A DNA stretch of 63,913 nt, filler included, from Folioceros fuciformis (lineage: Eukaryota): assembly GCA_049999805.1 (NCBI GenBank). It is 5 parts of 5 records of this genome, joined end to end, with 100 filler letters (N's around TTAATTAATTAA, not from the genome) between each part and the next. Parts side by side here need not be neighbours in the genome. Positions count along the whole stretch, not along the records: positions 1 to 17,582 come from JBNGIO010006370.1; 4 more parts are not named here. One strand, given 5' to 3'. The notes under the pieces are model-generated. The model did no database searches, was not told the DNA's origin, and was given only the letters and a program-made list of their open reading frames with translations. This document shows positions 2,862 through 61,373 of the stretch, piece by piece. Position 1 is the first letter of the stretch. Each line of letters opens with the position of its first letter. The translations under genes were made by a program, and so were the position numbers.

Positions 2862-5800
2862 ATGTGCCCCCACTCTGATGGCCTCCTTGATGTGTTCTGT
2901 CTTTCCGATTTTGATCTGAAGCTGGATCGAAAAAACTTGCCCTCTAGAGAAGGGCACAGGCGTAGAGCTGGAAAAGCACCATGCAGCGCCAGAAATCAAA
3001 GGCGAGGCATGGTCGGTTGGGTAACGGTTGGTCTAGGAAGACCTGCAGCTCGCCTGCTTGCACCTTTGCCCAGCAAGCAAGCGGGGAGGTGGCCCACTCT
3101 TTGCATTCAGCTGGCCCGTCCAAGAGAAAGTGCAGCTCCTGCTCCTGCCCCTGCTGGACGCAGATACTCCAGGGAGAGTTGTCGTCAGGAGAAGCTGTGG
3201 ATACAATTTTTTCAGGACCCAACACTGTGGTGGGATTATAGGCAAACTAAGAGGAGCCAGGGTTCGCCTGACTTCCGGCACAGGCAGTCCCACGATGTCC
3301 TGTGGTTGAACGACTTTTACAAGCCAGGTTGGGTGGATGTGCCGATTGCTGACCTGGATCTGCATATGGGTATAGTGAAGGATCTATGTCATGAGGGCCA
3401 TCTCGCAGAAGCTGTTGAGGCTTTAGAGCTTTCGGTACACTCAGGGCATTGTATTTGCAAATCTGTGCTTTACTCAGTCCTGAAAAGATGTGTGGCGAAG
3501 AAGGATCTGGTTTTGGGTCGACGTGTCCACGCGTTGATCGTCATGGCTGGGTATCAGTCGGACACGTTCTTGGCCTTCCATATCCTGCGGATGTATGCTT
3601 ATCATGGCAGATTGGAAGAAGCGATGGATGTTTTTGTTCGGGTTGCTGAACCAGATACTTTCACATGGTCTGCCATAATCTCTGCGCATGTTAGACAAGG
3701 ACAAGACAAGCAGGCCATACATCTGTATCATGGAATGCGCAGATCCGGTGTGAAGGCAGATTGCCATGTCTTTGTGGCGGCTCTTCAGGCTTGTGGAAGG
3801 CAGTCAGACTTGAAAAGTGGGCAGCAAGTCCATGCGGATGTGCTGGCCAGTTGTGTAGAGCCTGATTTGTTTGTCTGGAACTCCCTGGTAAACTTGTATG
3901 CAAAGTGCGGCAGGTTGGAAGACGCTCGGGGAGTTTTTGATAGACTTGGTCAGAAAAATGTTGTGACGTGGACTGCTCTGATAGCAGGATATTCTCAGCA
4001 GGGCAAGGGGCAGGAAGCCCTTTCCCTCTACGGTGCTATGCAAGAAGAAGGCTTGGCGGTACCCAATTCTGTGACATTTGCGTGCCTCCTGCAGGCATGT
4101 GCGAGTGTGGGTCCTCCAGCACTGGATGAGGGGAGGCATCTGCATTCACAAATTAGAGAACGAGGACATCAGGCTGATTTGTTTGTTGCCAACAGCTTGA
4201 CGAACATGTACGCGAAGTGTGGCAGCCTGGAAGACGCACACAGCGTGTTTGATAGCCTTAGTCACAAGGATGTTGTGACGTGGAACACAATAATTGGGGG
4301 ATATGCCCAGCAAGATATGGGGCAGGAAGCCCTAAGTCTGTACAATGCTATGCAAGAAGACAGCCGCGTGGTACCGGATTCTGTGACATTCGTATCCCTG
4401 TTGCAGGCATGTGCAAGTGTGGGTGCACCGGCATTGATGCAGGGAAAGGAACTTCATACACAGATTACAGCATGTGGACTGCAAGCTGATGGATTTGTAT
4501 CCAATAGCATGGTGAACATGTATGCTAAGTGTGGCAGCTTGGACGAGGCGCAAAGAGTGTTTGACAGGCTTGAGCAGAAAAATGTGGTGACGTGGACTGC
4601 CATGATATCAGGGTATTCCCAGCGGGGCATGGGGCATGAATCCCTCCGGCTGTACAGTGATATGCAAGAAGCAGGCCATGCTGTCCCCAATTCAGTGACA
4701 TTCGTGTCTCTTTTGCAGGCATGTGCAAGTGTGGGCGCCCGGGCATTAGAAAAGGGGAAGCACCTCCATTGGCAAATTGGGGAACAAGGACATCAAGATG
4801 ATGAGTTGGTAGTCAACAGTTTGGTGAACATGTATGCAAAGTGTGGTAGTTTAAAAGATGCACAAAGGGTGTTTGATGCACTTGTTCGTAAGGATGTTGT
4901 GACGTGGAATGCTGTGATTGGAGGATATTCCAAGCAAGGTATGGGGCAGGAAGCCCTCCAGCTTTACAGTGTGATGCAAGAAGATGGCAAGTCTGTACCT
5001 GATGCCATAACATTCATGTGCCTGTTGCAGGCATGTGCACTTGTAGGCACCCCAGCATTGGAGAAGGGGAGGCAGCTTCATCGTGAGATCAGAGAACGAG
5101 GGCATCAAGCTGATGTGTTTGTAGTCAACAGTTTGATAAACATGTACGCTAAATGTGGCAGCTTGGAAGATGCACGCCTAGTGTTCGACAATTTGGGCCC
5201 AAAAAATGAAGTGACTTGGACTACCATGATAGCGGGATATTCCCAGCAGGGCATGGGCCACGAAGCCCTTTGTCTCTACAGCAGTATGCAAGAAGAATGC
5301 ATTGCTTCGCCTAATTCTGTGACATTGGTGTGCCTCCTCCAGGCATGTACAGGCGTGGGCACCCCAGCATTAGAGAAGGGGAAACAGCTTCATATGCAGG
5401 TGAGAGATCAAGGATTTGAAGGTGATGTATTTGTAGCCAGCAGTTTAATTAGCATGTATGCAAAGTGTGGCAGCCTGTCAGACGCCCAAGAAATCTTTGA
5501 TGGGCTTGACCAAAAAAGTGTGGTGACCTGGAATGCGATGATAGCAGGATATTCTCAGCAGGGCATGGGGCAGCAAGCTCTGCATCTTTACAGAGGTATG
5601 CTGGAAGGGGGAATGGCTGCACCAAGCCCCGTGACATTTGTGTGCCTCCTGCAGGCATGCGCAAACCTTGGCAACATAGCTTTGGATATTGGTAAGCAGC
5701 TGCACGCGCAAATTGTGGAACAAGGACATCAGGGTGACTTATTTGTAGCCAGCAGTTTGGTTAACATGTATGCGAAGTGTGGGTGTTTGGAGGATGCCCA

Positions 5801-7043
5801 AAAAGTGTTTGACCGACTTAAGAAAAAAGATGTGGTTACATGGAATGCGATGATAGCAGGATATTGTCAGCAGGACATGGGGCAGGAAGCCCTTCATCTT
5901 TACAAGGATATGAAAGAAGATGGCATTGTTAAACCTGATTCGGTGACATTCGCATGCCTCCTGCAGGCATGTGCAGGTGTGGGTACCCAGGCATTGGAGA
6001 TGGGGAAGCAACTTCATGATCAAATTAGAGAACAGGGATGCCAGAATGATGTGTTTGTAGCCAGCAGTTTGGTAGACATGTATGCCAAGTGTGGCAACTT
6101 GCTAGATGCTCAGAGAGTGTTCGATGGGCTTAGTCACAAGGACGTGGTGATGTGGAATGCCATCATAGCAGGATATTGCCAACAGGGCATGTGTCAAGAA
6201 GCCCTACGCCTCTTTAGTACTATGCAAGAAAATAGTACGGCTGTACCTGATTCTGTGACATTTGTGTGCGTCCTCCAGGGATGTGCACATCTGGCAGCTT
6301 TGTATCTAGGAAGGCAGCTGCATGCACAGATCTTCGCACAAGGGCTGCAAGCTGATGTGCTTGTAGCTGGAGGTTTGATCAACATGTACGGAAAGTCCGG
6401 GAGCATAGTGGATGCACAAGGAGTGTTTGATACAACGCCCGAGAAAACTATTGTCACCTGGAGTGCATTGATTGCGGGCTACACCAGTCAGGGAGACAGT
6501 GAAGGGGTCTTTGACTTGGTGGAGGGAATGAGGGAGGATGGCGTACACCCGGATGGCATTACATTTCTCAGCGTACTGACTGTGTGCAGTCATGCGGGTC
6601 TCGTGAACAAGGGGCTTGAGTATTTTGAAACCATGAGCAGAGACTATAGCATCACTCCCACAGAGGACCACTACACATGTATGATCGATCTCTTGGGTCG
6701 TGCAGGACACTTGGATGAGGCACTAGCTTTTGTACGTGCAATGGCTGTACCACCTAATGGTGCAGTTTGGCATGCTCTGTTGGGTGCTTGTCAAAAGTGG
6801 AGCAACTTGGAGCTGGGCCGCTATGCTTTCAATGAAGCAATCAAGCTTGATGATAAAGATACAGCAGCATACGTGTTGATGTCGAACATATACACCAGTG
6901 CCCAGATGTGGGAGCAAGCAGACAAGATGCAAGGATGCAGAAAAGCAATGAGGGCATGGAAGCAGCCAGGTGAGACCTGGTGGACAGACCAGAACGGGAC
7001 GATGTATAGTTTTGTGGCTGGGGACGCGAAGCATCTAAACTGA
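2862..7043 (+). CDS. PLS-class pentatricopeptide repeat protein (E1-E2 plus truncated WW-type PG box; organellar RNA-editing factor-like) with an N-terminal PDF motif
   Basis: Intronless 1393-aa ORF with about 32 PPR motifs (L-S, nine P-L-S triplets, P2-L2-S2), then E1 (GAVWHALLGAC), E2 (AAYVLMSNIY) and PG box KQPGETWW. It stops before any HxE/CxxC deaminase motif. The start may be ATG 2862 or ATG 3009 (Arg/Ala/Pro-rich, transit-peptide-like). Confidence 0.95.
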   Translation: MCPHSDGLLDVFCLSDFDLKLDRKNLPSREGHRRRAGKAPCSARNQRRGMVGWVTVGLGRPAARLLAPLPSKQAGRWPTLCIQLARPRESAAPAPAPAGRRYSRESCRQEKLWIQFFQDPTLWWDYRQTKRSQGSPDFRHRQSHDVLWLNDFYKPGWVDVPIADLDLHMGIVKDLCHEGHLAEAVEALELSVHSGHCICKSVLYSVLKRCVAKKDLVLGRRVHALIVMAGYQSDTFLAFHILRMYAYHGRLEEAMDVFVRVAEPDTFTWSAIISAHVRQGQDKQAIHLYHGMRRSGVKADCHVFVAALQACGRQSDLKSGQQVHADVLASCVEPDLFVWNSLVNLYAKCGRLEDARGVFDRLGQKNVVTWTALIAGYSQQGKGQEALSLYGAMQEEGLAVPNSVTFACLLQACASVGPPALDEGRHLHSQIRERGHQADLFVANSLTNMYAKCGSLEDAHSVFDSLSHKDVVTWNTIIGGYAQQDMGQEALSLYNAMQEDSRVVPDSVTFVSLLQACASVGAPALMQGKELHTQITACGLQADGFVSNSMVNMYAKCGSLDEAQRVFDRLEQKNVVTWTAMISGYSQRGMGHESLRLYSDMQEAGHAVPNSVTFVSLLQACASVGARALEKGKHLHWQIGEQGHQDDELVVNSLVNMYAKCGSLKDAQRVFDALVRKDVVTWNAVIGGYSKQGMGQEALQLYSVMQEDGKSVPDAITFMCLLQACALVGTPALEKGRQLHREIRERGHQADVFVVNSLINMYAKCGSLEDARLVFDNLGPKNEVTWTTMIAGYSQQGMGHEALCLYSSMQEECIASPNSVTLVCLLQACTGVGTPALEKGKQLHMQVRDQGFEGDVFVASSLISMYAKCGSLSDAQEIFDGLDQKSVVTWNAMIAGYSQQGMGQQALHLYRGMLEGGMAAPSPVTFVCLLQACANLGNIALDIGKQLHAQIVEQGHQGDLFVASSLVNMYAKCGCLEDAQKVFDRLKKKDVVTWNAMIAGYCQQDMGQEALHLYKDMKEDGIVKPDSVTFACLLQACAGVGTQALEMGKQLHDQIREQGCQNDVFVASSLVDMYAKCGNLLDAQRVFDGLSHKDVVMWNAIIAGYCQQGMCQEALRLFSTMQENSTAVPDSVTFVCVLQGCAHLAALYLGRQLHAQIFAQGLQADVLVAGGLINMYGKSGSIVDAQGVFDTTPEKTIVTWSALIAGYTSQGDSEGVFDLVEGMREDGVHPDGITFLSVLTVCSHAGLVNKGLEYFETMSRDYSITPTEDHYTCMIDLLGRAGHLDEALAFVRAMAVPPNGAVWHALLGACQKWSNLELGRYAFNEAIKLDDKDTAAYVLMSNIYTSAQMWEQADKMQGCRKAMRAWKQPGETWWTDQNGTMYSFVAGDAKHLN
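3195..3335 (+). other. PDF motif (OSB-family organellar ssDNA-binding motif) within the PPR ORF
   Basis: LWIQFFQDPTLWWDYRQTKRSQGSPDFRHRQSHDVLWLNDFYKPGWV fits the recalled OSB PDF pattern LW..FF..P..WWD.R..K.....PDF.H......LW. Confidence 0.85.
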
Positions 7044-7139
7044 GTCTACCATCAAACACACCTTGTTCAAAACGGAGACAGAAGAATATGTACCAGAGAC
7101 ACGCATACTGCTTTTGAAAGTTGGCGATCGTGTCAAAAC

Positions 7140-7420
7140 AGGCACCTGAAGACAATGGGCTGGCTCCTTACTCCTTAAGTGTTTACTTGCGAGTTGCAGC
7201 TTGATATTTGATTAGCATGCTGGATTTCTCGGGTAACGGCGAGCAAGTCAGAGCAGCTCTGTGAGATGTCTGCGAAGAACAGGCACCGGAACACAACGGG
7301 CTGGCTCCTTAGGCCTTAGGTGTTCATGTGCGAGTTGCAGCTTGATATTTGATTAGCATGCTGGATTTCTCGGGTAACGGCGAGCAAGTCAGAGCAGCTC
7401 TGTGAGCTGTCAGCGAAGAA
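7140..7420. repeat. Imperfect tandem direct repeat, about 140-bp unit x2
   Basis: gcgagttgcagcttgatatttgattagcatgctggatttctcgggtaacggcgagcaagtcagagcagctctgtgag occurs at about 7189 and 7329. Confidence 0.85.
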
Positions 7421-7841
7421 TGCCAAATGGTGTTCACATCTTACACCCAGCAAAGCATGAAAGACCAAAGGAGTGTGAAAGATGGTTGAATGTCCATGTT
7501 TCGGTAAGTGCGGAAATTGATTATTGGGGAGAGAACGCAAGGGGCCCAACACTAGGTGACATCACCAACCCCATCTCTCAGCCGGGGAGTCACAAGTGCG
7601 TTTTCACCACCTATCTCTCAGCCGGGGAGCCAAGAGTGCGTTTACACCAACTATGGGCTTCCCAGCCTGGTGTATGATTCAGCATACGCTTCGCAAGCAA
7701 ACATCTCAGTGGCATACTCTGTAGTCTGCGGATATGGAAAACCGTAAGGCCAACCTATCTTCTTGAAGTTCCAAATGGCGCATTTCGGCACTACAGTATG
7801 TGTCAGGTACTGCTCCCATAGGGATCAGCCTAGAGGTTGGA

Positions 7842-8644: not shown

Positions 8645-10792
8645 CTAGGCTTGCAAAGGATGAGAGCCGTACACTGCAACCGGTCTAGATCTGGGCAGCG
8701 GAGGGAGTTCAACTTCTCCGATCAAGATCTGCTGTATATGCCTGGTAGAAAGCCTTTCGCTGGGTACTGGGTCTGTGCACAGCAAGCCTACATGTAGCAA
8801 ACAGGTCAGCTCACTTTCGTCGAACTTGCCGTCCATAGCTGGGTCTGCTGCGTCCAGCAGGGTGTCAGCTTCTTGCATCTGCCACACCCAGTCCAGTAGC
8901 TGTGCTTCCTGGTCGGGGATTCGCGGTCTCCTGCCACACGCTACCTCCAACGACAGAACCCCAAAGCTGAACACGTCCGATTTATCGGAGGCTTTCCCGG
9001 TTAAGGCAAGCTCCGGAGCCATGTAGCCCCTGGTCCCAGCTAATCCTGTCAGGGTGAGGCCCGTCGTGTCCTCCACTAGGCGGGCCAGGCCGAAGTCTCC
9101 CAACCGACCTTCCATGTCCGAGTCGAGCATTATGTTGCTGGGTTTGATGTCCCTGTGGAGGATGCGCTTCTTGCACTCCGTGTGGATGTAAACCATAGCC
9201 GCTGCTACCCCTTGGACTACACGAAACCTCTCTTCCCAGGACAGCACCCTCTGACCAGAGTAGAGGTGCCGATCTAGGCTCAGGTTTGGCATGTACTCGT
9301 ACACAAGCAGGAGCTCGTCCTGTTCATGGCACCAGCCATGGAGATGCACCAGGTTCCGGTGCCGAAGCTGCCCCAAGCTCCTCAGCTCCGCTCGAAATTC
9401 CTTCTCTCCCTGTTTGGAATCCTGCGAGATCCTTTTGATGGCCAGCTGGACATCCAAGTCTCCTATCCGCATCACGCCGTGGTACACACTCCCGAATCCA
9501 CCTTTCCCCAGAACCAGTGACTGGCTGAAACCTTGAGTCGCATTCTTCAGCTCCTGGTAGGAGAAGGTCCGTGTCCCGTAGCTGGCATCCACATCATCTA
9601 CTGGATTAAAAGGGCGTGAGGGCTCGGAACTCCTGCCTGTGGACGAAGTCGGTGCTTTGTCTCCCATCATGAGAGGACGAAGGCCATTGTTCTCCGAATC
9701 CCCACCAGATGAGCAACAAAAGAACCAGCCGGCGCCACAGCCAAGAGCGACTGCCAGAAGCGTTGCGCCAATTGCGACCCCCGCAACCAATCCGGTCCTG
9801 CTGCCTCCTCTGCTATTGTTGCCTGCCTGAGGCTGAGTGGGAGCCTGGGGCTGAGTGGGAGCCTGGGGCTGAGTGGGAGCCTGGGGCTGAGTGGGAGCCT
9901 GGGGCTGAGTGGGAGCCTGAGGCAGAGGGGAGGGAGCTTGTGGCAAGCCACTGGTGGAGAAGCTCCAGCTGTAGACGTAGATCAGCTCCATTGCTGCACC
10001 TGTGCTAGCCGTGAACCCGACATAGGAATACTGTCTCACGATGCTGGAGACGTTCAAAGGGCTGTAAGAGAGCACGAGGGAGGAATTTGCTTTCTGGGTT
10101 CCGGCCCTGGCCATGTATATCACCAGCTCTTGCCTGTCCGCGGAGTAGTCAATCCAAGCCGTCAAGACAGGAGCATCGGCCGCATAATTGTCGAGCTGAA
10201 TGCCGTAATCTGACAGGTTCGCGGTTTTCCTAGAGACGTAGCTGTTGATGTCCAGCCCGACGTGGTTGGAGTCGTTCACGGGATCGATACCCGGGTTGTA
10301 ATAGGTGTCGAACTCCACGGCCACGACATGAATCCCGGGATCGCCGTCGACGTATGAGCTGTCGTAGATACCGATAGAACCACCGGCGTCGTTAGGGATG
10401 TCAGGGATGGGAGCGATGATGAAGGTCATTCCATCTGCCATGTAGTACGGGGGAACCGCCTTCATCCTGAAATTGAAGGAGGTGTTGAAGGAAGCTTCCG
10501 CACCAGAACCCACATCATAGAACTGCACCGGGGAAGAGAACACCGCTCTGGACACGAGGCCCCCGGCTACACCATTCCTCGGATCGCTGTTATTCACAGT
10601 GAGCTGCAGAATTCCTCCGGCTACCAGGGTACAGTTGCCGCTCAGCCGGAGGCCCGGTTGTGAGAAGTCGGGGAAGGAGAACCGCACATTTTGCGCACGG
10701 CAGCAGCTCGGTGTCACGCCCAGCAGAGGAAGCAGCAGGGGAGCACAGATGCGGAGCAGGCACAACATCGCGTTCCTCATTATCCGATTCAT
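8645..10792 (-). CDS. L-type (legume) lectin receptor-like kinase
   Basis: Signal peptide, lectin domain (SFNTSF, ADGMTF, VAVEFDT, NHVGLDIN), Pro/Gln stalk, TM helix and a complete kinase (GKGGFG, AIK, HRDIKPSN, DFG, GTRGYMAPE). Intronless; ATG 10792 corresponds to the paralog's ATG. Confidence 0.95.
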   Translation of the reverse strand: MNRIMRNAMLCLLRICAPLLLPLLGVTPSCCRAQNVRFSFPDFSQPGLRLSGNCTLVAGGILQLTVNNSDPRNGVAGGLVSRAVFSSPVQFYDVGSGAEASFNTSFNFRMKAVPPYYMADGMTFIIAPIPDIPNDAGGSIGIYDSSYVDGDPGIHVVAVEFDTYYNPGIDPVNDSNHVGLDINSYVSRKTANLSDYGIQLDNYAADAPVLTAWIDYSADRQELVIYMARAGTQKANSSLVLSYSPLNVSSIVRQYSYVGFTASTGAAMELIYVYSWSFSTSGLPQAPSPLPQAPTQPQAPTQPQAPTQPQAPTQPQAPTQPQAGNNSRGGSRTGLVAGVAIGATLLAVALGCGAGWFFCCSSGGDSENNGLRPLMMGDKAPTSSTGRSSEPSRPFNPVDDVDASYGTRTFSYQELKNATQGFSQSLVLGKGGFGSVYHGVMRIGDLDVQLAIKRISQDSKQGEKEFRAELRSLGQLRHRNLVHLHGWCHEQDELLLVYEYMPNLSLDRHLYSGQRVLSWEERFRVVQGVAAAMVYIHTECKKRILHRDIKPSNIMLDSDMEGRLGDFGLARLVEDTTGLTLTGLAGTRGYMAPELALTGKASDKSDVFSFGVLSLEVACGRRPRIPDQEAQLLDWVWQMQEADTLLDAADPAMDGKFDESELTCLLHVGLLCTDPVPSERLSTRHIQQILIGEVELPPLPRSRPVAVYGSHPLQA
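9831..9920 (-). repeat. 18-bp coding minisatellite x5 encoding PQAPTQ
   Basis: ggctgagtgggagcctgg repeated five times in frame in the LecRK stalk. Confidence 0.95.
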
Positions 10793-27189: not shown

Positions 27190-30100
27190 GCGGACACAGT
27201 CGCAGCACATACCTCTAAGTTCAGACACCTTAGAGGGCAGTTGGCCTCTCTTGGGTCACTAATGACCGAGACCGACGCTGTTGCTCAACTGCTAATGAGT
27301 CTGCTGGCCTCCTAGCAACACTTTGTCACTAGCATGATGTTGGTTTCAACTCGCGGCATCCCTGGATCCACCTCCTCTATGGCAGTGGAGGAAATCATCA
27401 GTGCCCTTTACCAACATGAACAAAGCCGCCTCAATTCTGTAGGAGGGTCCAAGCCCAAGGTAGATAAGGCACTCGCTATTCGTTTTAAGCCTAGGAAATT
27501 CAAGGAGAAGTAGGCAACTACCTCCAAGAGTGAGTCGACCTTAGCTCCACCTCGCCGGGCAGGTAACTGCAATTGATGCGGCACACCCGGCCACTGGGCA
27601 CGAGAATGATGCAAGAAAAAGGCCGGAGAGCTACAGAAGCTTGGCCTGCGCCAGACCGCAAGTGTAGCCGTCAAAGGCAAAGCAGTATCCGAGGAGGCAA
27701 AGACGATCAAGATTCTCACCGTTTGCCTCAATACTCAGCCACAACAAGACAGAGGGTGGTACCTTAATAGTGGAGCCACCGCTCATATTTGCAATGACAA
27801 CACTCTGTTCTCCAAGCTAGACACACGTCCTGTCAGAGAAAGAGTGCTCTTGGGAGATGAGTAGAACAAATCAAGTCTGCCCATACTTGGACAAGGGACT
27901 TGCAAGTCCCCCTTACCTGACGGATCAACACTTACCCTAGAGCCTGTGCTCTATGTTCCACTAATGGGGAAGAACCTTGTTTCCTTGAGTCAGCTCATGC
28001 AACACGGTACCCTGGAGATACTGTTCTCGCGTGACTCTTGCTGCTTTTACAGGCCAGCTAACTTTGACCTGTGCGTGTTAAAAGCCATCCTTCAAGATGG
28101 ACTTTATAAGCTCACCTTGGACAGCAGACAGGAGCCCCTTGTCTTCACTGCTGAACAGCCCTCCTCCAGTCTGGCTACCCTTTGGCACGCCAGGCTCGGT
28201 CACATCAACAAGAATAAGTTAATCTCAATGTCATCACAGGACCTATATAAGGAACCTATGCCAAGATGCTTCCGGCACCTTCTTGTTTGCGAGCCATGTG
28301 TGCTTGCAAAGAAAAAGGAGTCGTCATTCCCCAAACATGCGCAGAGGTCAGAGTCAGTGCTGGAGCTGGTGCACGCTGACATATCAGGAAGGATTCACAC
28401 TCCATCCCTGGGAGGGGCGATCTACTATCTCACCCTCACCGATGACTTCAGCAAATACTCGTGGACCTTCCCCATGCACCTGAAGAGCAACATATTATTT
28501 TAAGGATTGGCTACTTGCTGTCGAGCATCAGACAGGCAACTTGCTGAAAACCCTGCGAAGCAACAATGGGAGTGAGTTTGTAAACAATAAGTTTGATGCT
28601 TTCCTGCTCGAGCGAGGAATCCAAAGACAACTCAGTGTTCTTTAAACCCCGCAGCAAAATGGGGTTGCTGAGCGTAAGAACCAAACGCTCCTCTCCATGA
28701 CTCGAAGCATGCTCTTGTGGTTTGGTCTTCCGCAGGGCTTCTGGGCTGAAGCCATAGTGGCCGCCACATACATCTTGAACCGGATCATCACAAGCTCCGC
28801 ACCCGGCCGCACTCCATACGAGGTATACTAGAAACGAAAGCCAAGTATTCAACACCTGCGGGTTTTTGGATCAACAACTTTCGCCCACATCCCTGCACAA
28901 AAGCGGCACAAGTTAGAGGACAGGGCAAGGAAGCCGATTTTTGTAGGCTACATTGAATCTACCAAGGCCTACAAACTCGTAGACCCTGAGACCTACAAAA
29001 TCACCCTTGCACGGAGTGTTACCTTCATGGAGCTTGCTAGGCCAACCTCAAAGGGAGCCGCCTCAGCCGAGGACCCAACTCCCCCTGACTCAGACCCTTT
29101 ATCAAGCTTCCCTCCGGAGGACGGTGACCCCCGCACTCTTGACATAGTGGATGCCGACTCGGATGTTGAGGACGGCCACCCACCCTTTCAGGACCTGCCA
29201 CCTGAAGACCATACTGGTGCTTTCGGTGACCCACCTGTCACCGCCGACAATGCTGACGGTGACTTGCTGCCCGCACCTGACATTCATGCCCCTGATGGAA
29301 CACCACTGGCTGCTCCACCACTTGTGTCGGACGGATGTGAGACGGCACCTACTAAGCTGCCTCTGCTAGATCCTACACCAGCTTCTGACCCTCGCTGCAG
29401 CACCCGTCACCGGCCACCGCTGTCCCAGTGGGCTGAGCCACCCTACCAGTCAATGGATTTTCGAACTGCTTTCAATTCCCTCTCCACTGCCTTGACCTCT
29501 TCCTCCTCTTTACCTGAGGAGCCAGCTACTCTGACCCAAGCACTCACTAGCCCCGAGTCCTCCCAGTGGCGGCTCGCAATGGAGGATGAATACCAGAGTT
29601 TGGTTCAGAACAAAACTTGGGAGCTAGTCGACCCGCCCCCTGGGAGGAAGCCCATCTCATGTAAATGGACATTCAAGCTAAAGTTGAATGCCCAAGGCCA
29701 GGTAGCCCGCTTCAAAGCTCGCCTGGTCGCTCGTGGGTTCTCCCAAGTTGAAGGCCTCGACTATCAAGAGACCTTTTCTCCTGTGGTACGTGCTCAATCC
29801 ATCCGGATTCTGCTTGCCCTTGCTGCTGAGCTTGACCTCGAGCTCCACCAAATGGACGTGAAGACTGCTTTTCTTTACTGCAATCTAGACGAGGAGCTCT
29901 ACATGAATCAACCTGAAGGCTATGTCAGCAAGCAACACCCAGGCAAAGTCCTAAGGTTGAGAAAGTGTATCTACGGCCTTAAGCAAAGCGGCCGGGTTTG
30001 GTACACCACCATGCACGCCTACCTCCTGAGTGTCTCTTTCACCCAAAGCACAGCCGACGGCAACGTATACAAGCTTTCTCGAGGCCCCCATTTTTTGGCC

Positions 30101-31143
30101 CTTGCTCTGTATGTTGACGACCTTATTCTTGCAGCAAACAACTCCGAAATGCTAGCAGAGGTCAAGTAACTCCTGAGTGCTCGCTTCGAAATGAAGGACA
30201 TAGGTGAACTCCAATTTTGCCTTGGCATACAAATCCTTAGCAACAGGACAGAAGGAAGATTGGTCATCCACCAACTGAAGTACATCAACGAGATACTATG
30301 AAAGTTCAAGTTGGATCAAGCCAGGCTGGTATCCACTCCTTATGCCGTGGGCACTAAGCTCAAAGCCGACCTGTGCCCACATACAGAGGAGGAAGCCAAA
30401 GAGATGCAAGGGATCCCCTACCATCATGCCTTAGGTAGCCTCCTCTTCGTCAGTGGATGGACAAGGCCAGACATCCAATACTCTATCTCCACGGTATCCC
30501 AATTCCTAGAGTCGCCTGGCAAGGCACACTGGGCTGCCGTCAAGAGGGTGTTCCGCTACTTGAAGGGAACCCTAACATATGGGCTTGTATACCAAAGTGT
30601 AGGAACATGCAAGCTCTCACTCACTGGTTATACGGATGCCGACTGGGCATCTGATCCCGACTCAAGGAAAAGTTTGAGTGCACATTGCTTCCTACTATCC
30701 GCAGCCGCAGTGAACTGGAGCTGCAAGAAGCAGACCTCCATAGCACTCTCTTCCACGGAGGCCGAATAGAAATCCCTTACAGACGCCTCCAAAGAAGTTG
30801 AATGGGAAAGGGCTTTTCTATCTGATATAGGCCAAAAGCAAGATGAGCCCACACCCCTTCACTACGACAACATGTCAGCCTTGGCACTAATCTCCAACCC
30901 AAATTTCATGCCAGGACAAAACATATAGAGATTCAGCACCACTACATCCACAACGTAGTGGAGCGTAAGGTGGTACAAGCTGGCTACGTGCCCACAGAGG
31001 AAAACCTAGCAGACCTTTTGACAAAGGGCCTGCCCAAGTCGAGACACTACCAGCACATGCAAAGAATGGGACTTGTGGACTACTCACCCTACCTCTCTAT
31101 CGACCAAGTACAAGGGAGGACTCACCTGACAGAGGGAGCATGA
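27190..31143 (+). pseudogene. Copia gag(3')-pol of element A: zinc knuckle, protease, integrase, RT, RNase H
   Basis: LWHARLGH, LELVHADI, QNGVAERKN, ARFKARLVARGF, QMDVKTAF, LYVDD, YTDADWA, IALSSTEAE; multiple in-frame stops. Confidence 0.95.
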
Positions 31144-41401: not shown

Positions 41402-42992
41402 TGTCAGAATTGGAAGACTACATGCGGAAGCGTGTCTTCATAACAAAAGATAAATTCAGAATAAAAATTACAAATAGTTGTCCTTTTATAGGTTTCACCC
41501 CAAAGGGTGTGACCTTTCACTAGCCTAGCCAACTAACCTAGCACTTAGGTAGATAAGCTAACATAACCTATGGTTACATAACTCTAGTGGACTGCTACTC
41601 CTTCTAACTCTCCCTCTCAGACACGTAGAGATTATGAGAGCTCTACTAGAGATCAGTGCTTAGCAAGTTTGTATTCTAGAGCTATCTACTTTAGCTCGGC
41701 TGTCAACTCTTCCAGTCGTTGACACTATCAAGATGTCTGTCGCTGGCGACAACCTCTACAGTAGCGCACCGGTCATGACCAGAGCAGAAGTAATACTCCA
41801 GGTATAGCTGCCATTGCACTAGATCGAGCAAGAAGGAATATCATTACCTCGTCTTCAAATTCTCTTGGGTAACATAACCACTACAATCTACAAGACCAAG
41901 TCCTTCCCTATGAAAACAGTGTCTAAACTTAGGAAGTGACTTTGTCAGAACATCAGCTACATTAAGGTCTGTAGACACATACTGAATCTTCACTAAGCCT
42001 CTCTCAGCAGCATCCCTAACATAATGATGTTGGATCTCGATGTGCTTAGTGCGAGCATGGAAAACAGGATTAGCCACCATAGCAATGGCTGACATATTAT
42101 CACAGTTGAGGATGGTAGGGCCCTTTTGGAGCATTCCCAGATCCTCACATAGTTTCCTTTCCCACTCAGCCTCCTTTGTGGCTTCTGTTAATGCCTTACA
42201 CTCTGATTCTGTAGAAGACAGAGAGATGGAGGCTTGTTTCCTGCAAGACCAGTTAATTACTGTGGAACCAGCCAGAAAACAATAAGCAGAAAGGCTTTTG
42301 CGGGTATCAGCATCAGAAGCCCAATCTGCATCCACATAACAGCTGAGCTGCAGATGCTTCTTCCTGCTAGGTTTGTAGCAGAGACCAAAGTTAGGAGTGC
42401 CCTTAAGATATCGCATTATCCTTTTAACTGCAACCCAGTGGTCTCTACCTGGATTCTCAGAGAATTGCGCAACTGCATTCACAGTGTTAGATATGTTTGG
42501 TCTCGTCCAGTTGCTAAGGAACATGAGAGTGCCCACTGCCATTCTATAAGGCACACTTTCCATTTCCTTCTTATCCTCTTCACACTGAGGACATGACGAC
42601 GAGGACAGCTTAATACCAATAGCACCTGGAGTTGCAGCTGCACGAGCATTCTCCAAATTAAACTTCTTCAGCATGCCTGCTACATATCTCCCTTGATGGA
42701 GGTAGATTGCTCCTATGGACCTATCTTTATGTACGTGCATTCCTAGTATATACTTGACTTGACCAAGATCTTTCATCTCAAACTCTTTACTGAGATCTGT
42801 CTTGATCTGGTTAACAAGCTCCACATTATTTCCAGGAATGACTAAGTCATCCACATACAAAGCTATTAACACAAGTGAACTATCTTTTCGCAGTACATAA
42901 AGATTAGTGTCAGCTTCACTTTGCACAAAGCCAATCTTCTTGAGATATGTGTCAATTCGCTTGTACCAAAGGCGTGGGCTTTGTTTAAGCCC
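41402..42992 (-). mobile_element. Copia 3' portion (RT-RNase H, PPT, putative 3' LTR about 41402-41608) abutting the 5' end of element B's gag
   Basis: ORF 41844-42926 with LYVDD, YVDADWA and HARTKHIEIQHH; PPT GAGAGGGAGA on the minus strand near 41610; cut by the linker. Confidence 0.88.
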
Positions 42993-48350: not shown

Positions 48351-49517
48351 ATGGCACTTGTCTCCTCGCCATCCCTTCAGTGCGATGGCAGCCGGCACGA
48401 ATTCGTCGTTCAAATGAAGTCAGGTGAAGGGGAGGACAGCTACTTGAAGAACTCCTCCCCGCAATCGCACATGCTTCAGGTGGTGGAAGCGCCACTGTGG
48501 CACGGGATTCGATCAGCCTCCCGCATTCCAGAGACGGGACATGCAGGCCCCGCCCTGCGCGTAGCAGACCTAGGATGCGCCACGGGCACCAACACCATCA
48601 AAGCTGTGGACAAGCTCCTAGAAAGTCTGGTAGCCCTGTGGGAGTCCAAGTGTGGCCAGCTGCAGCTGCACCCTTTCCCCAAGGACGTCCAGGTTTTCTT
48701 CTCCGACTTGCCCTCCAACGATTTCAACACTCTCTTCCGGACCCTGTCGCCTTCCGGCTCGGGATCCAGGGGCTATTTCGCAGCCGGTGTGCCTGGATCC
48801 TTCTATGGCCCGCTGTTTCCCGCCTCGAGCATCCACGCTTTCACCTGCTTCACTGCGCTGCATTGGATGTCCCGAGTACCGCCCGAGGTCCAGGACAGGA
48901 ATTCCCCTGCATTCAACTTTGACAGGGTGCACGTCCATGGCGCCGGTCCCGCCGTGGAGCAGGCCTTCGCTAGGCAGAGTTCCCGGGATCTGACGGAGTT
49001 CTTCACGAACCGAGCCACCGAGCTGGTACCAGGAGGCTTCCTTGCGCTGGCCATGCTCATCAAACCAGACGATCAGCCTGATCGGCAAGGAATCTGGCGG
49101 TTTCTCTGGGACGCCTTCCACGAGCTAGCTGTCCAGGGTGTTATTCCGCGGGTTCTCATCGAGACCTTCAACATTCCCTACTACTATCCGAGTATCGCAC
49201 AGGTGAGGCAATCTGTGGACCAGGTAGGGCTCTTCGACGTCCACATCCTCCAATCCTGCGGTGAAATCTCCCACCATCCTGCACACAAACGTCAGGAATA
49301 CCGAGCGGATGTCACCAAATTTGCAAAGGACGGTACTTTGGCCTTGAGGAGCATTCTCCAGTCATCCATGCAGGACCACTTCGGTACGGAGTTGAGCAAC
49401 AAGGTGTTCGAGCAGTTCGAACAAGGTATCAGAACCCTTAATCTTCAGCCTGGTGGAGAATATGTAGACGATTACTTCACCACAAGTTATGGTATTGTTC
49501 TTCTGACCAAGAAGTAG
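48351..49517 (+). CDS. SABATH-family SAM-dependent carboxyl methyltransferase (388 aa, intronless)
   Basis: MKSGEGEDSYLKNS..Q, VADLGCATGTN, FFSDLPSNDFNTLF, GVPGSFYGPLFP, ALHWMS, FNIPYYYPS. Confidence 0.96.
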   Translation: MALVSSPSLQCDGSRHEFVVQMKSGEGEDSYLKNSSPQSHMLQVVEAPLWHGIRSASRIPETGHAGPALRVADLGCATGTNTIKAVDKLLESLVALWESKCGQLQLHPFPKDVQVFFSDLPSNDFNTLFRTLSPSGSGSRGYFAAGVPGSFYGPLFPASSIHAFTCFTALHWMSRVPPEVQDRNSPAFNFDRVHVHGAGPAVEQAFARQSSRDLTEFFTNRATELVPGGFLALAMLIKPDDQPDRQGIWRFLWDAFHELAVQGVIPRVLIETFNIPYYYPSIAQVRQSVDQVGLFDVHILQSCGEISHHPAHKRQEYRADVTKFAKDGTLALRSILQSSMQDHFGTELSNKVFEQFEQGIRTLNLQPGGEYVDDYFTTSYGIVLLTKK

Positions 49518-56392: not shown

Positions 56393-59300
56393 ATGTGCAT
56401 CAACATTGTGTTCATCAAGGTTGTCCTGATCAGCAAGTCCTAGAGCAGCATGCTGATCATCTTCATCATGTTGTTCATATTGAATAGGATTCTGGTGAAG
56501 AGGCTGTCCATGTAGATCAGCTGGGACAGCTGTTGGTACAACTAGCTGTGCACCAGATTGTGTGCCAAGTTGTAGAAGCTTATTCACAGCTGCATGATCA
56601 GTATTATCTGGTGACTCTCCGTCAGACTGAGGATAATGAAAGGCAACATCAGCAGGAACCATGTCCTCGAGCAATGGCCCTAGTGGAGATGAGCCTCTAG
56701 CATCGTTCCTTATTTCCTGTTTAGTCTGAGGGAAGACAAGTTCCTTACAGGTAGCACTCCTAGACAGGATGACCTTAGACGTGTCTGGATCATAAAGTTT
56801 GTACGCCTTGGACTCTTCAGAGTAGCCAATAAAAACCAGCTGCTTAGCTCTATCGTCTAACTTTCGTCTTTTGGCCTCAGGTATGAAGGCAAAGGCAGGG
56901 GATCCAAAAACCTTAAGGTGTGACAAACTTGGCTTCCTTCCCCAGAATGCTTCATAGGGTGTTTTCCCTGGAAGGGCAGAGGTCACCAATCTATTCAAAA
57001 TGTAAGTAGCAACTACTGCTGCTTCTGCCCAATACCTCTTAGACAGACCTGAGTATGATAACATGCTTTTGGTCATCCCCATGATTGTTTGATTCTTCCT
57101 CTCAGCGACTCCGTTTTGCTGTTGTGTGTAGGGCACCGACAGCTATCTGATGATTCCAAACTGCTGAAAGAGATCATCAAATCTGTGGCCAGTGAACTCG
57201 CCTCCATTGTCGGTTCAAAAACACTTGACCAAATGCCTTGTTTGGCGCTGAACCATGGGAATCCAGGAAGCTATCTGTTCATATACATCACTTTTCTGCT
57301 TGATAGGAAATGTCCATGCATATCGTGTGAAATCATCTGTCAATTTTAGGTAGTATTCTGCACCTCCTAACGACTTGACTTGGATCCTCCCAGCAATATC
57401 ACCATGGATAAGTTCAAGCACTTCCTTAGCACGATTGGGTGCTTTATTTTTAAAGGGCAGCTCTTTCTGCTTAGACAGAATACAAGAGCTGCATGCTTCT
57501 AGGTGCTTGAAGCAGGAGGGTAGTTTTTCCCTATACAAACTTGAGTTGGCCATGACATCTAGCTTAAACTTGTTGACATGACCTAACCTCGCATGCCAGA
57601 GGTTAGCTTGTGCATTGGATGTAGCAACTAGTGCCCTAACATGATGCTTAGAAACTGTGACCAACTGGTACAGATCATTGACTAGGATGGCTTTAGCGAC
57701 GTAGTTGTGAGGATCAGAGAGATTGTAGATATAACACTTTCTGTCCTCAAACCTAAAGCCATACTGCTGACTCTGTGCCACAACCCTAATAGATAGCAAG
57801 TTTTTGCTCATATCAGGTACATACAACACATCTTCAAGACGTAAGGATGCACCACCAAACAAGGTATGAACACAACACCACAGCCTTTTACCTCCACACC
57901 TCTTGAGTCCCCAACGTACACTGACTGTGGAGATGTCTGTCTGTGGAAGGTGGAAAAGAGTTGCCTGTTGTTGCAAACATGCGCTGTAGCACCAGGATCG
58001 ACAAACCAAGAGGAAGATGTTTCTATGTAAGAAGTTAAGCGCACAGTCATAACTGAGCTGCTACTTTTGTGGTTTGGGTGATTCGGAGAATTGGATTTGT
58101 CCTTTGAGGTGACATGTGCCTCAGGTCTGCTGTCCTTCTTGGCTTCACCTGCTTTCTTTTTCCGACAATCCCTTTCCCAATGTCCTGGAGTTTGACACCA
58201 GTGACAATTGCCTTGCTTTTTTGTAGTGACTGTAGCGGAGGTTGAGTGTTGAGGTGAGTTTCCCTTCTTACCCTTCCCCTTCCAAGGTCCTTTGCCCTTA
58301 GCTGCAAAAAGGACCTTCTCACCACGAAGACGAGAGCCACCTTGCTTGTGACGACTCTGCTCTTCTTGCATGAGTGCTCCAATGACAGCATTCAAGTTCA
58401 ATGTAGTCGGTTGACCACTAGAAGCTGCTTGATAGGCAGCATGAAGTGCTGTGTTCTGACTTGATATAAACGTCTGATAGGAAGGAGGAAGGCCGGTCAA
58501 CAGTTGAGCTACCATTTCCACATCAGTCGTCTTGGCCCCAAGCGCGGCAAGCTGTGCCCGCAAGTACCTCAACTTTGTGACGTAGGCTCCAACTAGATCC
58601 CCTTCCTTCATCCGCAGACTGTGAAAGTCACTCCTAACGTGGATAAAGGCACAAACATTCTGCACCTGGTACGTGTCAACAAGTTGAGTCCAAACATCTG
58701 CTGCTGACTCCAGGAAATCAACTTCGGAGACAGTAGTCTCATCCAGGCCTGAAAGTAAGATGGCAAATGCTATCTTATTGCCTTTATTCCACTTAGCAAA
58801 ATCATCTGATGTAGGCTGATTCTGTGCCGTGGCTGGGATGGTCGCAGGGTTGGGAATTGTCCCATCAACGAACTCCCATACATCCCTGGCATTGAGGTTT
58901 GCTTTCATTCTTGCTTTCCAGCTTTCAAACTGGGCAGGTTTACCATCAAACCTGTCCTTTTCTTTGAACTCTCCTGAATAGGAAGAGCCAAAAGATGTTG
59001 TTGGATTATTAGCCATGTTAATAGTTCCTATAGAGGCTGTTAGACCCACTGAAGGAGGTAGTGACGTCTGCTGTTGCAGGTATGCAGGCAATACGGATAC
59101 TGGAAACTGTGCTGCAAGTGACTGTAGAATATTAGCTTCTGAGTTTGAAGACTCGTCAACCTCACTTCTTGAATCTAGCCAAAAATGACTAGACATGAAC
59201 AATCGTAAAGCGAACCGGTAAATTACAGCACACAATGCTTCATTAGGTTAGAAACCTGTTCATGCTAGAAATGATATGAAACGTTACTATTAGGGCAGAA

Positions 59301-60464: not shown

Positions 60465-61373
60465 GGGGCACCCTTCCTGATCTGGGCGGTTGATGCGCAA
60501 TTGAGCGCGCCTCTACCATGCACCTGGGCGCCCTGGATGGGCGATCTCAGCCCTGGATTGTTCAGCAAAAATTGGACAGCGTTGTCCTGATCCTACACCA
60601 CCAAACCAGTGATCAACTTTTCTGGCTTTGCATTAAATTCAGAGACAATTTGAGGAGAGGAGCCACCAAATGGGGCGCCTGTATGTGTAGATGTTGCCTG
60701 GCGCCTCCTTTGATTATTCACTTGCCGAAATGATGGAGAGAAGATTAACAATTCTTCGTCACTTTCTTTCCATTCCTCGGCATTCGGTGGCTAATCTCTT
60801 GCAGGTGACGTGCTTAGGCACGTTGTTGTACAATGTCCTTCACGGGGTTGTGGAGCGCCTTCACGAAGTGCCGAACTCAGGCTTGAGTGGGAAGCAACTA
60901 TTTCATTGGTGCCATCTCTCCTAGTTCAGGCACTTGATTTTCTCTGCTAACGATTAGAGAAAGATCTTGAATGACCTGACATCAAATCGGTGTTGCTAGG
61001 ATGGCTTTCTGTCGGTGGAGTCCAGCCTTGATCTTGCAAAGTGTGGAAGAGAGCATCCAGCCAGCTATTGCCGAGAAGACGTTGTGTTCTCGATGAGGAA
61101 GAACGCCCTGTCCTCCTATCATTGCTACTGCGATGCGTACGACCATGAGTTCGAACCCGATCTTCAACACTTCGTCTTGCTGAAGCTTGAGAGCAACGAT
61201 GATACCTTCCCATCCGTGAACTGGGAATTTTGTGGTGGAAGGGAGACTTGCAATGGATGGCTTCTAGAAAAAGNNNNNNNNNNNNNNNNNNNNNNNNNNN
61301 NNNNNNNNNNNNNNNNNTTAATTAATTAANNNNNNNNNNNNNNNNNNNNNNNNNNNNNNNNNNNNNNNNNNNN

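What the first reader, a model, noticed from the sequence alone, without database searches (positions are those of the whole stretch)
3195..3335. OSB-type PDF ssDNA-binding motif fused to a PLS-class RNA-editing PPR protein
Seen: a clean PDF motif (LW..FF..P..WWD.R..K.....PDF.H......LW) lies in frame between a transit-peptide-like N-terminus and the first PPR motif of an intronless gene. Known: PDF motifs are the ssDNA-binding modules of plant organellar OSB proteins, and PLS-E proteins are editing specificity factors that normally carry no N-terminal accessory domain. Inference: this could tether an editing factor to nucleoid ssDNA or R-loops, or add non-specific RNA affinity. I cannot tell from here whether the fusion has been reported.
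Basis: partly seen in the sequence, partly recalled or inferred. Interest (0 to 1): 0.8.

Follow-up and report, generated by a model that had tools for sequence, protein, structure and literature searches.

The report
PDF motif on a PPR protein
A plant gene for an organelle RNA-editing helper carries, at its front end, the small DNA-binding motif otherwise known from organelle genome-maintenance proteins, and the same combination turns out to be common but apparently undescribed in mosses, liverworts, clubmosses and ferns.

Summary
Observation confirmed. Window 3195-3338 (+) encodes residues 112-159 of an intact, intronless 1393-codon ORF (2862-7043). A profile built only from non-PPR (OSB-type) PDF motifs scores it 59.8 bits; the next-best six-frame fragment of the window scores 5.1. 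Searching 1.84 billion proteins with the segment gives 471 hits at E<=1e-3. These include named OSB2/OSB3 proteins. The rest of the ORF is a PLS-type PPR array plus an E motif, with no DYW domain and no DYW remnant downstream.

The fusion is not a one-off. 68 of 120 listed profile hits are PPR proteins with 1-4 N-terminal PDF motifs, and 65 of those are Diphasiastrum clusters. Further examples come from Selaginella, Adiantum, Pteridium, Sphagnum, Ceratodon and Calypogeia. No named seed-plant hit was a PPR protein: 0 of 30 and 0 of 21. Seven literature searches found no description of it.

Function is inferred, not shown. I favour an auxiliary, sequence-independent single-strand nucleic-acid grip at the 5' end of the PPR tract. 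Nucleoid ssDNA tethering is the main rival. The isolated motif folds confidently (pLDDT 91.8) but matches no solved fold.

The parts
2862..7043 (+). Uninterrupted ORF of 1393 codons plus stop (protein P0001): presequence, PDF motif, PLS PPR array, E motif
   Evidence: ORF, standard code; Pfam PPR_2 E 8.4e-161, PPR E 2.9e-141, E_motif 55.1 bits against a cut-off of 27.3
3009..3194 (+). Likely presequence, starting at the second in-frame Met (residue 50): 62 residues with 9 R, 2 K, 10 A, 3 E, 0 D. The stretch 2862-3008 from the first Met holds 5 D and looks less like a transit peptide
   Evidence: composition. The choice of start codon is inference. No transcript 5' end is available
3195..3338 (+). 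PDF motif (residues 112-159). In the models: an alpha-helix, a small beta-meander carrying the WWD and PDF segments, then a helix that runs on into the first PPR
   Evidence: OSB-only profile, 59.8 bits, residues 112-159; 471 hits; invariant columns; AF2 models, pLDDT 91.2 and 91.8
3366..6797 (+). PLS-type PPR array (residues about 169-1312, roughly 30 repeats)
   Evidence: 19 PF01535 and 15 PF13041 stretches; Foldseek best matches: synthetic PPR-DYW 9kfx_A E 2.9e-15 and designer PLS-type PPR 5iww_D E 2.6e-14; regular helix pairs
6798..7040 (+). E motif region (Pfam E_motif residues 1313-1373) and the short tail that ends the protein; no DYW deaminase domain
   Evidence: PF20431, residues 1313-1373; tblastn with the C-terminal 200 residues of three PDF-PPR-DYW proteins aligns only up to 7031-7034, nothing downstream at E<=1
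7041..7043 (+). Stop codon TGA

Best explanation
The segment encodes a genuine PDF motif, homologous to the ssDNA-binding motif of plant OSB proteins. It sits just after a probable organelle presequence and about 8 residues before the first repeat of a roughly 30-repeat PLS-type PPR protein. That protein ends in an E motif and has no DYW deaminase. The gene belongs to an old, large and apparently undescribed PDF-PPR subfamily of non-seed land plants. Shown: the homology, the architecture and its recurrence. Inferred: PPR tracts bind RNA with their N-terminal repeats towards the 5' side of the target (established knowledge). I therefore propose that the aromatic and basic PDF module acts as a built-in, sequence-independent grip on single-stranded nucleic acid. 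It would hold the RNA just 5' of the sequence-specific PPR footprint. This would add affinity, or keep the site unfolded, at the end of the array where repeats contribute least to recognition. The E-type C-terminus would then recruit a deaminase in trans. I put the identity and architecture at about 0.95 and this particular mechanism at about 0.35. The confidence given below is for the mechanism.
For: Homology to the OSB motif: (471 hits at E<=1e-3; the top hits are multi-PDF proteins); the same profile retrieves proteins named OSB2 or OSB3, for example Amborella OSB3 at E 1.3e-67; the OSB-only profile gives 59.8 bits.

Architecture.

Recurrence: 13 of the 150 listed representatives are PPR proteins with N-terminal PDF motifs, and Pfam confirmed PPR in the 7 of them that I scanned. 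68 of 120 listed profile hits are PPR proteins. Of 80 stored proteins with PPR similarity, 78 carry 1-4 PDF motifs, and the first always starts within residues 7-169. 22 of the 120 nearest PPR relatives carry it. Names span a liverwort, mosses, lycophytes and ferns.

A single mRNA in relatives: transcriptome-derived ORFs of Pteridium (P0105, P0162) hold PDF and PPR together.

Conservation: the PPR-linked and OSB-linked consensus share the same aromatic and basic invariants.

Rigid coupling in this protein: in the AF2 model the last PDF helix runs straight into the first PPR helix (model helix 57-78; pLDDT 91.2).

Literature: a review states that the PDF motif of AtOSB1 is sufficient for ssDNA binding (PMC6963530, passages). 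N-terminal PPRs are reported to contribute weakly to target selectivity (PMC10482289 and PMC6397227, passages).
Against: No binding, localisation or editing data exist for any PDF-PPR protein. Recombinant AtOSB1 and AtOSB2 are reported to prefer ssDNA over dsDNA or RNA (PMC4166229, passage), which favours the ssDNA-tether rival over an RNA grip. The spacing between PDF and PPR varies among relatives and many carry 2-4 PDF copies. That fits a flexible, independent module better than a fixed extension of the RNA groove. I had no access to model coordinates, so I could not check whether the conserved aromatic residues face the PPR RNA-binding surface. Expression of this particular gene and its start codon are not shown. 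Most listed PLS relatives lack the motif (98 of 120), so it is not required for PLS function in general.
Confidence: 0.35

Rival explanations
1. Nucleoid tether. The PDF motif binds single-stranded organellar DNA, such as the displaced strand of transcription bubbles or R-loops, or replication and recombination intermediates. This would concentrate the editing factor on the nucleoid so that sites are met co-transcriptionally.
For: The motif keeps all residues conserved in OSB PDF motifs. A review states the AtOSB1 PDF motif is sufficient for ssDNA binding (PMC6963530). OSB1 and OSB2 prefer ssDNA over RNA (PMC4166229). Multiple PDF copies on many PPR relatives parallel the copy-number expansion seen in OSB proteins (PMC13393729).
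Against: There is no localisation or binding data for any PDF-PPR protein. A tether gives no obvious reason why the motif always sits at the N-terminal end next to the first repeats: the first PDF starts at residue 7-169 in 78 of 78 proteins. Nothing here tests DNA against RNA preference.
Confidence: 0.25
2. Protein-contact module. The PDF motif mediates oligomerisation or recruitment rather than nucleic-acid binding. Partners could be other PDF proteins (OSB, other PDF-PPRs) or a trans-acting DYW deaminase needed by E-type proteins.
For: AtOSB2 is reported to be a tetramer (PMC6963530). This protein lacks a DYW domain and must obtain deaminase activity in trans. Lineages with PDF-PPRs are said to lack the seed-plant non-PPR editing helpers (PMC9459714, figure legend passage).
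Against: The motif also occurs on relatives that have their own DYW domain. My pattern test found 20 such proteins among 80 stored PPR proteins, for example P0073 and P0082. Recruitment of a deaminase therefore cannot be its general role. Which part of OSB2 mediates tetramerisation is not known to me. No interaction test was run.
Confidence: 0.15
3. The motif is not part of the mature protein of this gene. Either translation starts at the Met at 3366, or the motif is removed with the presequence, or the gene is a decaying paralogue. The motif would then be only a relic of the family's architecture.
For: Transcript ends are unknown. The gene has lost, or never had, a DYW domain. Such families turn over quickly, and there is at least one paralogous contig at 90% identity or more over the motif in the same organism's DNA run (places 3296 and 3302 in X1).
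Against: The ORF is open for 1393 codons and every invariant PDF position is kept. A contig about 90% identical, from a second organism, spans 3227-3609 (motif into the PPRs). Among the differences that were listed, no invariant PDF column is touched. The list is incomplete: about 24 of 37 differences were shown. Homologues from annotated genomes and transcriptomes keep the motif in the same ORF.
Confidence: 0.07
4. Chance resemblance: the PDF-like string is not homologous to the OSB motif.
For: Pfam holds no model that matches it, and no solved structure matches by sequence or fold.
Against: 59.8 bits against an OSB-only profile, compared with 5.1 for the next-best fragment. 471 database hits at E<=1e-3, including named OSB proteins.
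Confidence: 0.01

Closest known systems
[quoted passage not shown]
   Same: The same roughly 50-residue motif with the same invariant aromatic and basic positions. Profile searches retrieve named OSB2/OSB3 proteins and the PPR-linked motifs together. Both are nuclear genes with organelle-type presequences (here inferred).
   Different: [quoted passage not shown] Here there is no SSB/OB domain. The motif is N-terminal and is followed by a PPR array. OSBs act on DNA recombination, whereas the partner domain here is an RNA-editing specificity module.
PLS-class PPR RNA-editing factors, E subclass (recalled examples: angiosperm E-type factors that use trans deaminases)
   Same: PLS repeats and E motif, intronless gene, no DYW domain.
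   Different: It carries an N-terminal PDF motif. The additional domains listed for Physcomitrium PPR proteins are RRM, LAGLIDADG, SMR, NYN, CBS and SAP, with no PDF (PMC9459714, table footnote passage).
MORF/RIP helpers of seed-plant editosomes
   Same: Only a possible functional analogy: an accessory part that increases RNA binding by PLS arrays. A designer PLS-PPR/MORF9 complex is among the best fold matches to the PPR part (5iww_D).
   Different: There is no sequence or fold relation to the PDF motif. MORFs are separate proteins that contact L motifs. PDF is fused in cis at the N-terminus. The analogy is untested.

Membership tests
PDF motif (as defined on OSB proteins) | Significant match to a profile of PDF motifs from non-PPR, OSB-type proteins | tested here: met
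   59.8 bits, residues 112-159, E 1e-17 in 1273 fragments; the same family profile retrieves proteins named OSB2 and OSB3. Caveat: the 'OSB-only' set was defined as PDF proteins without PPR similarity. Not every member was verified as an OSB.
PDF motif (as defined on OSB proteins) | Binds single-stranded DNA | not testable with these tools
   Known for AtOSB1 only from a review passage (PMC6963530). The primary paper PMC1785405 is not held.
OSB protein family | Central SSB/OB-fold-like domain | tested here: not met
   no PF00436 (SSB) or other OB family among the 24 Pfam families listed for P0001 at E<=1. Residues 169 onward are PPR repeats.
OSB protein family | PDF motif(s) located C-terminal to the OB domain | tested here: not met
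   The motif lies at residues 112-159 of 1393, directly after the presequence.
PLS-class PPR editing factor, E subclass | Tandem P, L and S type PPR repeats | tested here: met
   (PPR_2 522.5 bits, PPR 450.7 bits). (best fold matches are a synthetic PPR-DYW and a designer PLS-type PPR). I did not run a P/L/S motif caller.
PLS-class PPR editing factor, E subclass | C-terminal E motif(s) | tested here: met
   PF20431 E_motif 55.1 bits (cut-off 27.3), residues 1313-1373.
PLS-class PPR editing factor, DYW subclass | C-terminal DYW cytidine deaminase domain | tested here: not met
   no PF14432; tblastn with three DYW-bearing relatives aligns only to 6774-7034, with no downstream remnant at E<=1.
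PLS-class PPR editing factor, E subclass | Specifies an organellar C-to-U editing site | not testable with these tools
   No organelle genome or transcriptome of this organism is at hand, and no target prediction was attempted.
WW domain (considered because the spacing of the two conserved Trp and a Pro, and a small beta-meander in the model, recalled it) | Structural match to solved WW domains | tested here: inconclusive
   Foldseek against PDB: best E 9.7. VIA-align wide: best Z 3.9, no WW entry among the 50 rows shown. Pfam: no family at E<=1.

The most novel reading that the evidence does not exclude
PDF-PPR fusions are the ancestral land-plant way of giving PLS editing factors extra grip on single-stranded nucleic acid. 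On this reading they are a cis-acting counterpart of the trans-acting MORF/RIP helpers, and were lost in the seed-plant lineage in which MORFs took over. The OSB 'ssDNA' motif would then be a general single-strand binder that also works on RNA, and dozens of editing factors per genome in lycophytes and ferns would depend on it.
Probability: 0.15. Interest if true: 0.8.

Novelty: new variant of a known kind. Interest (0 to 1): 0.6.

Why it matters
PPR editing factors and OSB proteins are both well studied, but as separate worlds: RNA editing on one side and organelle DNA recombination on the other. A shared module on dozens of editing factors per genome, across liverworts, mosses, lycophytes and ferns, suggests one of two things. 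Either the PDF motif is a more general single-strand binder than the OSB literature assumes, or editing factors in these lineages are physically linked to the nucleoid. Both ideas can be tested directly with existing heterologous editing assays and EMSAs. The finding also matters for annotation, because these proteins are currently labelled 'hypothetical' or plain 'PPR'. It matters too for engineered PPR editors, where a small affinity-boosting cap could be useful. The apparent absence from seed plants, where MORF helpers exist, gives a concrete evolutionary hypothesis.

Tried and rejected
1. RNA evidence for this gene. The look-up of sequencing runs listed no holder on record as RNA. The runs guessed to be RNA (X3, X4, X5) are Logan contigs. 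They cannot show a start, a strand or transcription. X3 shows no cover before the bin 3083-3243. I draw no conclusion from this.

2. Whole-genome search. No genome is held for this window, so I could not count PDF-PPR paralogues in this organism.

3. Word-based search of the motif region among proteins of 766-2438 residues found nothing. This was a sensitivity limit. It was overturned.

4. Solved structures. No PDB sequence match to the motif profile at E<=1. Foldseek best E 9.7. VIA-align wide best Z 3.9. The WW-domain idea therefore gained no support, and no known fold was identified. This does not show that the fold is new.

5. ESM Atlas: no usable hit.

6. Single origin of the fusion. A FastTree of 547 motif instances (56 columns) splits the 116 PPR-linked instances into 13 pure groups: 60, 31, 6, 4, 4, 4 and 7 singletons. 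The smallest clade holding all of them has 243 members. The motif is too short to decide between one and several fusion events. I make no claim.

7. The primary OSB1 paper (PMC1785405) is not held. Supplements are closed, so Table S1 of PMC13393729 (its list of 182 OSB genes) could not be checked for PPR-containing entries.

8. Earlier scan notes: the search found no note holding all the words. One note on an algal OSB was returned.

9. I did not run complex prediction, because the report claims no protein-protein binding.

Full report
THE OBSERVATION

Window 2862-7043 (+) is one uninterrupted ORF of 1393 codons. Residues 112-159 (window 3195-3338) read as a PDF-type motif. It is the only such string in the six frames of the window.

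Pfam has no model for it: 0 families at E<=1 for window:3009-3359. I therefore tested it in three other ways.

(i) phmmer with window:3144-3377 (78 residues) against 1.84 billion cluster representatives gave 471 proteins at E<=1e-3, 97 at <=1e-10 and 10 at <=1e-30. The top hits carry up to 13 copies of the motif.

(ii) A profile of 14 PPR-linked motifs (A1) retrieved 373 proteins at E<=1e-3. Among the 120 listed are proteins that NCBI names OSB2 or OSB3, for example Amborella OSB3 at E 1.3e-67, plus Carex, Abrus, Salvia and Papaver.

An HMM built only from the 431 motif instances of proteins without PPR similarity hits residues 112-159 at 59.8 bits (E 1e-17 among 1273 six-frame fragments). The next-best fragment of the window scores 5.1 bits.

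THE GENE

Pfam finds PPR_2 (E 8.4e-161), PPR (E 2.9e-141) and an E motif at residues 1313-1373 (55.1 bits, cut-off 27.3). It finds no DYW domain. tblastn with the C-termini of three DYW-bearing relatives aligns only up to 7031-7034, and nothing downstream matches at E<=1. So this is a PLS-E protein, not a broken DYW gene as far as can be detected.

An AF2 model of residues 100-446 (30-row alignment) has pLDDT 91.2. Its best PDB matches are a synthetic PPR-DYW (9kfx_A) and a designer PLS-type PPR (5iww_D).

In-frame Met codons lie at 2862 and 3009, and, after the motif, at 3366. From 3009 the 62 residues before the motif are rich in Arg and Ala and hold no Asp, like a transit peptide. The start codon is inferred.

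THE FUSION IS A FAMILY, NOT A SINGLETON

Of the 150 listed representatives, 13 have PPR similarity plus N-terminal PDF motifs. Pfam confirmed PPR, E or DYW domains in the 7 of them that I scanned.

Of the 120 proteins listed, 68 are PPR proteins (my local test, agreeing with the precomputed Pfam column). 65 of these are separate 90% clusters of Diphasiastrum complanatum.

Across all 80 stored proteins with PPR similarity, 78 carry PDF motifs: 25 with one, 44 with two, 8 with three and 1 with four. The first motif always starts within residues 7-169.

Among the 120 nearest relatives of the first 420 residues of this protein, 22 carry the motif: 16 of 114 new ones (4 of them cut at the N-terminus) plus 6 already known.

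Source names place the architecture in these taxa:
- a liverwort (Calypogeia fissa);
- mosses (Sphagnum compactum, jensenii, fallax, tenellum and troendelagicum; Ceratodon purpureus);
- lycophytes (Selaginella moellendorffii, Diphasiastrum);
- ferns (Adiantum capillus-veneris, A. nelumboides, Pteridium aquilinum).

The Pteridium entries are transcriptome ORFs, so in a fern the PDF and PPR parts sit on one mRNA.

No named seed-plant row was a PDF-PPR:
- 0 of 30 named seed-plant rows (all OSB-like, with no PPR Pfam domain);
- 0 of 21 seed-plant PPR rows. These are rows labelled Gb_, which I take to be Ginkgo, plus PITA_, Musa, Taxus and Tetracentron.

Both lists are capped, so absence from seed plants is provisional. 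Hornworts were not seen either way.

The motif occurs on relatives with a DYW domain as well as on E-type ones. My pattern test found 20 with and 60 without among the 80 stored proteins. The window's closest motif relative, P0082, ends in GRP and has a KP-type box. From memory, that is the DYW:KP variant linked to U-to-C editing.

WITHIN THE MOTIF TREE

The window's motif pairs with P0082 (support 0.873), then with the first copy of Diphasiastrum P0195. PPR-linked instances fall into 13 groups, and 56 columns cannot resolve whether the fusion arose once.

A DNA contig of the same organism and a 90%-identical contig of a second organism cover the motif. The second spans 3227-3609. Among the differences listed (about 24 of 37), it leaves the invariant positions unchanged.

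STRUCTURE OF THE MOTIF

Folded alone (45-row alignment) the motif gives pLDDT 91.8. The model has a helix, two short strands carrying the WWD and PDF segments, and a second helix. In the longer model that second helix continues into the first PPR helix.

No solved structure matches. The profile against PDB sequences gave 0 at E<=1. Foldseek's best was E 9.7. VIA-align's best was Z 3.9 over 48,161 chains. A WW-like reading that I considered gained no support.

HOW IT MOST LIKELY WORKS

The following is from papers or established knowledge:
- The AtOSB1 PDF motif is said to suffice for ssDNA binding (PMC6963530, passages).
- OSB1 and OSB2 prefer ssDNA to dsDNA or RNA (PMC4166229, passage).
- PPR arrays bind RNA with N-terminal repeats towards the 5' side (established knowledge).
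- N-terminal repeats add little specificity (PMC10482289 and PMC6397227, passages).

My inference is that the PDF module is a sequence-independent single-strand grip at the 5' end of the footprint, adding affinity or keeping the site unfolded (about 0.35). The rivals are:
- a nucleoid ssDNA or R-loop tether (0.25), favoured by the reported ssDNA preference;
- a protein-contact module (0.15);
- a motif that is not in the mature protein of this particular gene (0.07);
- chance resemblance (0.01).
The remainder is none of these. None of them is tested here.

WHAT IS KNOWN

Seven full-text searches found no paper that links the PDF motif with PPR or DYW proteins.
- The 2026 OSB family survey has no occurrence of 'PPR' or 'pentatricopeptide' (PMC13393729, find).
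- The Physcomitrium PPR overview lists RRM, LAGLIDADG, SMR, NYN, CBS and SAP as extra domains, but not PDF (PMC9459714, passage).
- The primary OSB1 paper and much of the subscription literature on lycophyte and fern PPRs are not held.
So 'unreported' carries that caveat.

The earlier scan note returned concerns an algal OSB and does not touch the fusion.

VERDICT

This is a real feature, correctly read. It is one member of a large, old, database-visible but apparently undescribed PDF-PPR subfamily, and therefore a new variant of a known kind. Interest 0.6.

Noticed in passing
P0082 (Logan protein, 753 aa; closest relative of the window's PDF motif): This PDF-PPR protein ends in GRP instead of DYW and has a KP-type box in place of the PG box. 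From memory, that marks the DYW:KP variant proposed for U-to-C editing. If so, the PDF motif occurs on both editing directions.
   Followed up: partly
P0051 (Coptis chinensis, 1526 aa) and P0031 (Striga hermonthica, 1063 aa): PDF motifs sit in the same predicted protein as a kinesin motor (P0051, Pfam Kinesin E 1.8e-86). In P0031 they occur in a protein named 'Interactor of constitutive active ROPs 2'. These may be merged gene models rather than real fusions.
   Followed up: no
P0002 (Kingdonia uniflora, 1160 aa): An OSB-like protein with 13 matched PDF stretches, far more than the one to five copies described in the OSB papers I read.
   Followed up: no
window 7137-7420: Two tandem copies of a 141-bp unit (92% matches) directly downstream of the PPR gene's stop. 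A second small repeat (40 bp x 2) lies at 7573-7654.
   Followed up: no
window 8645-10792 (-): An intronless 715-codon ORF for an L-type lectin receptor kinase (Lectin_legB E 9.6e-51, Pkinase E 7.9e-45).
   Followed up: no
window 29027-30169 (+), 41844-42776 (-), 57808-59196 (-), 61322-62278 (-): Copia-type retrotransposon pieces (RVT_2, Retrotran_gag_2, zf-CCHC). A SABATH-type carboxyl methyltransferase ORF lies at 48351-49517 (+). The window holds 652 N.
   Followed up: no
P0259 (Calypogeia), P0073 and P0318 (Sphagnum), P0303: In these bryophyte PDF-PPR proteins the residues between the motif and the first PPR are themselves conserved across liverwort and moss (a shared stretch right after the motif's final WV). 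This hints at an orthologous group with a fixed PDF-PPR junction.
   Followed up: partly
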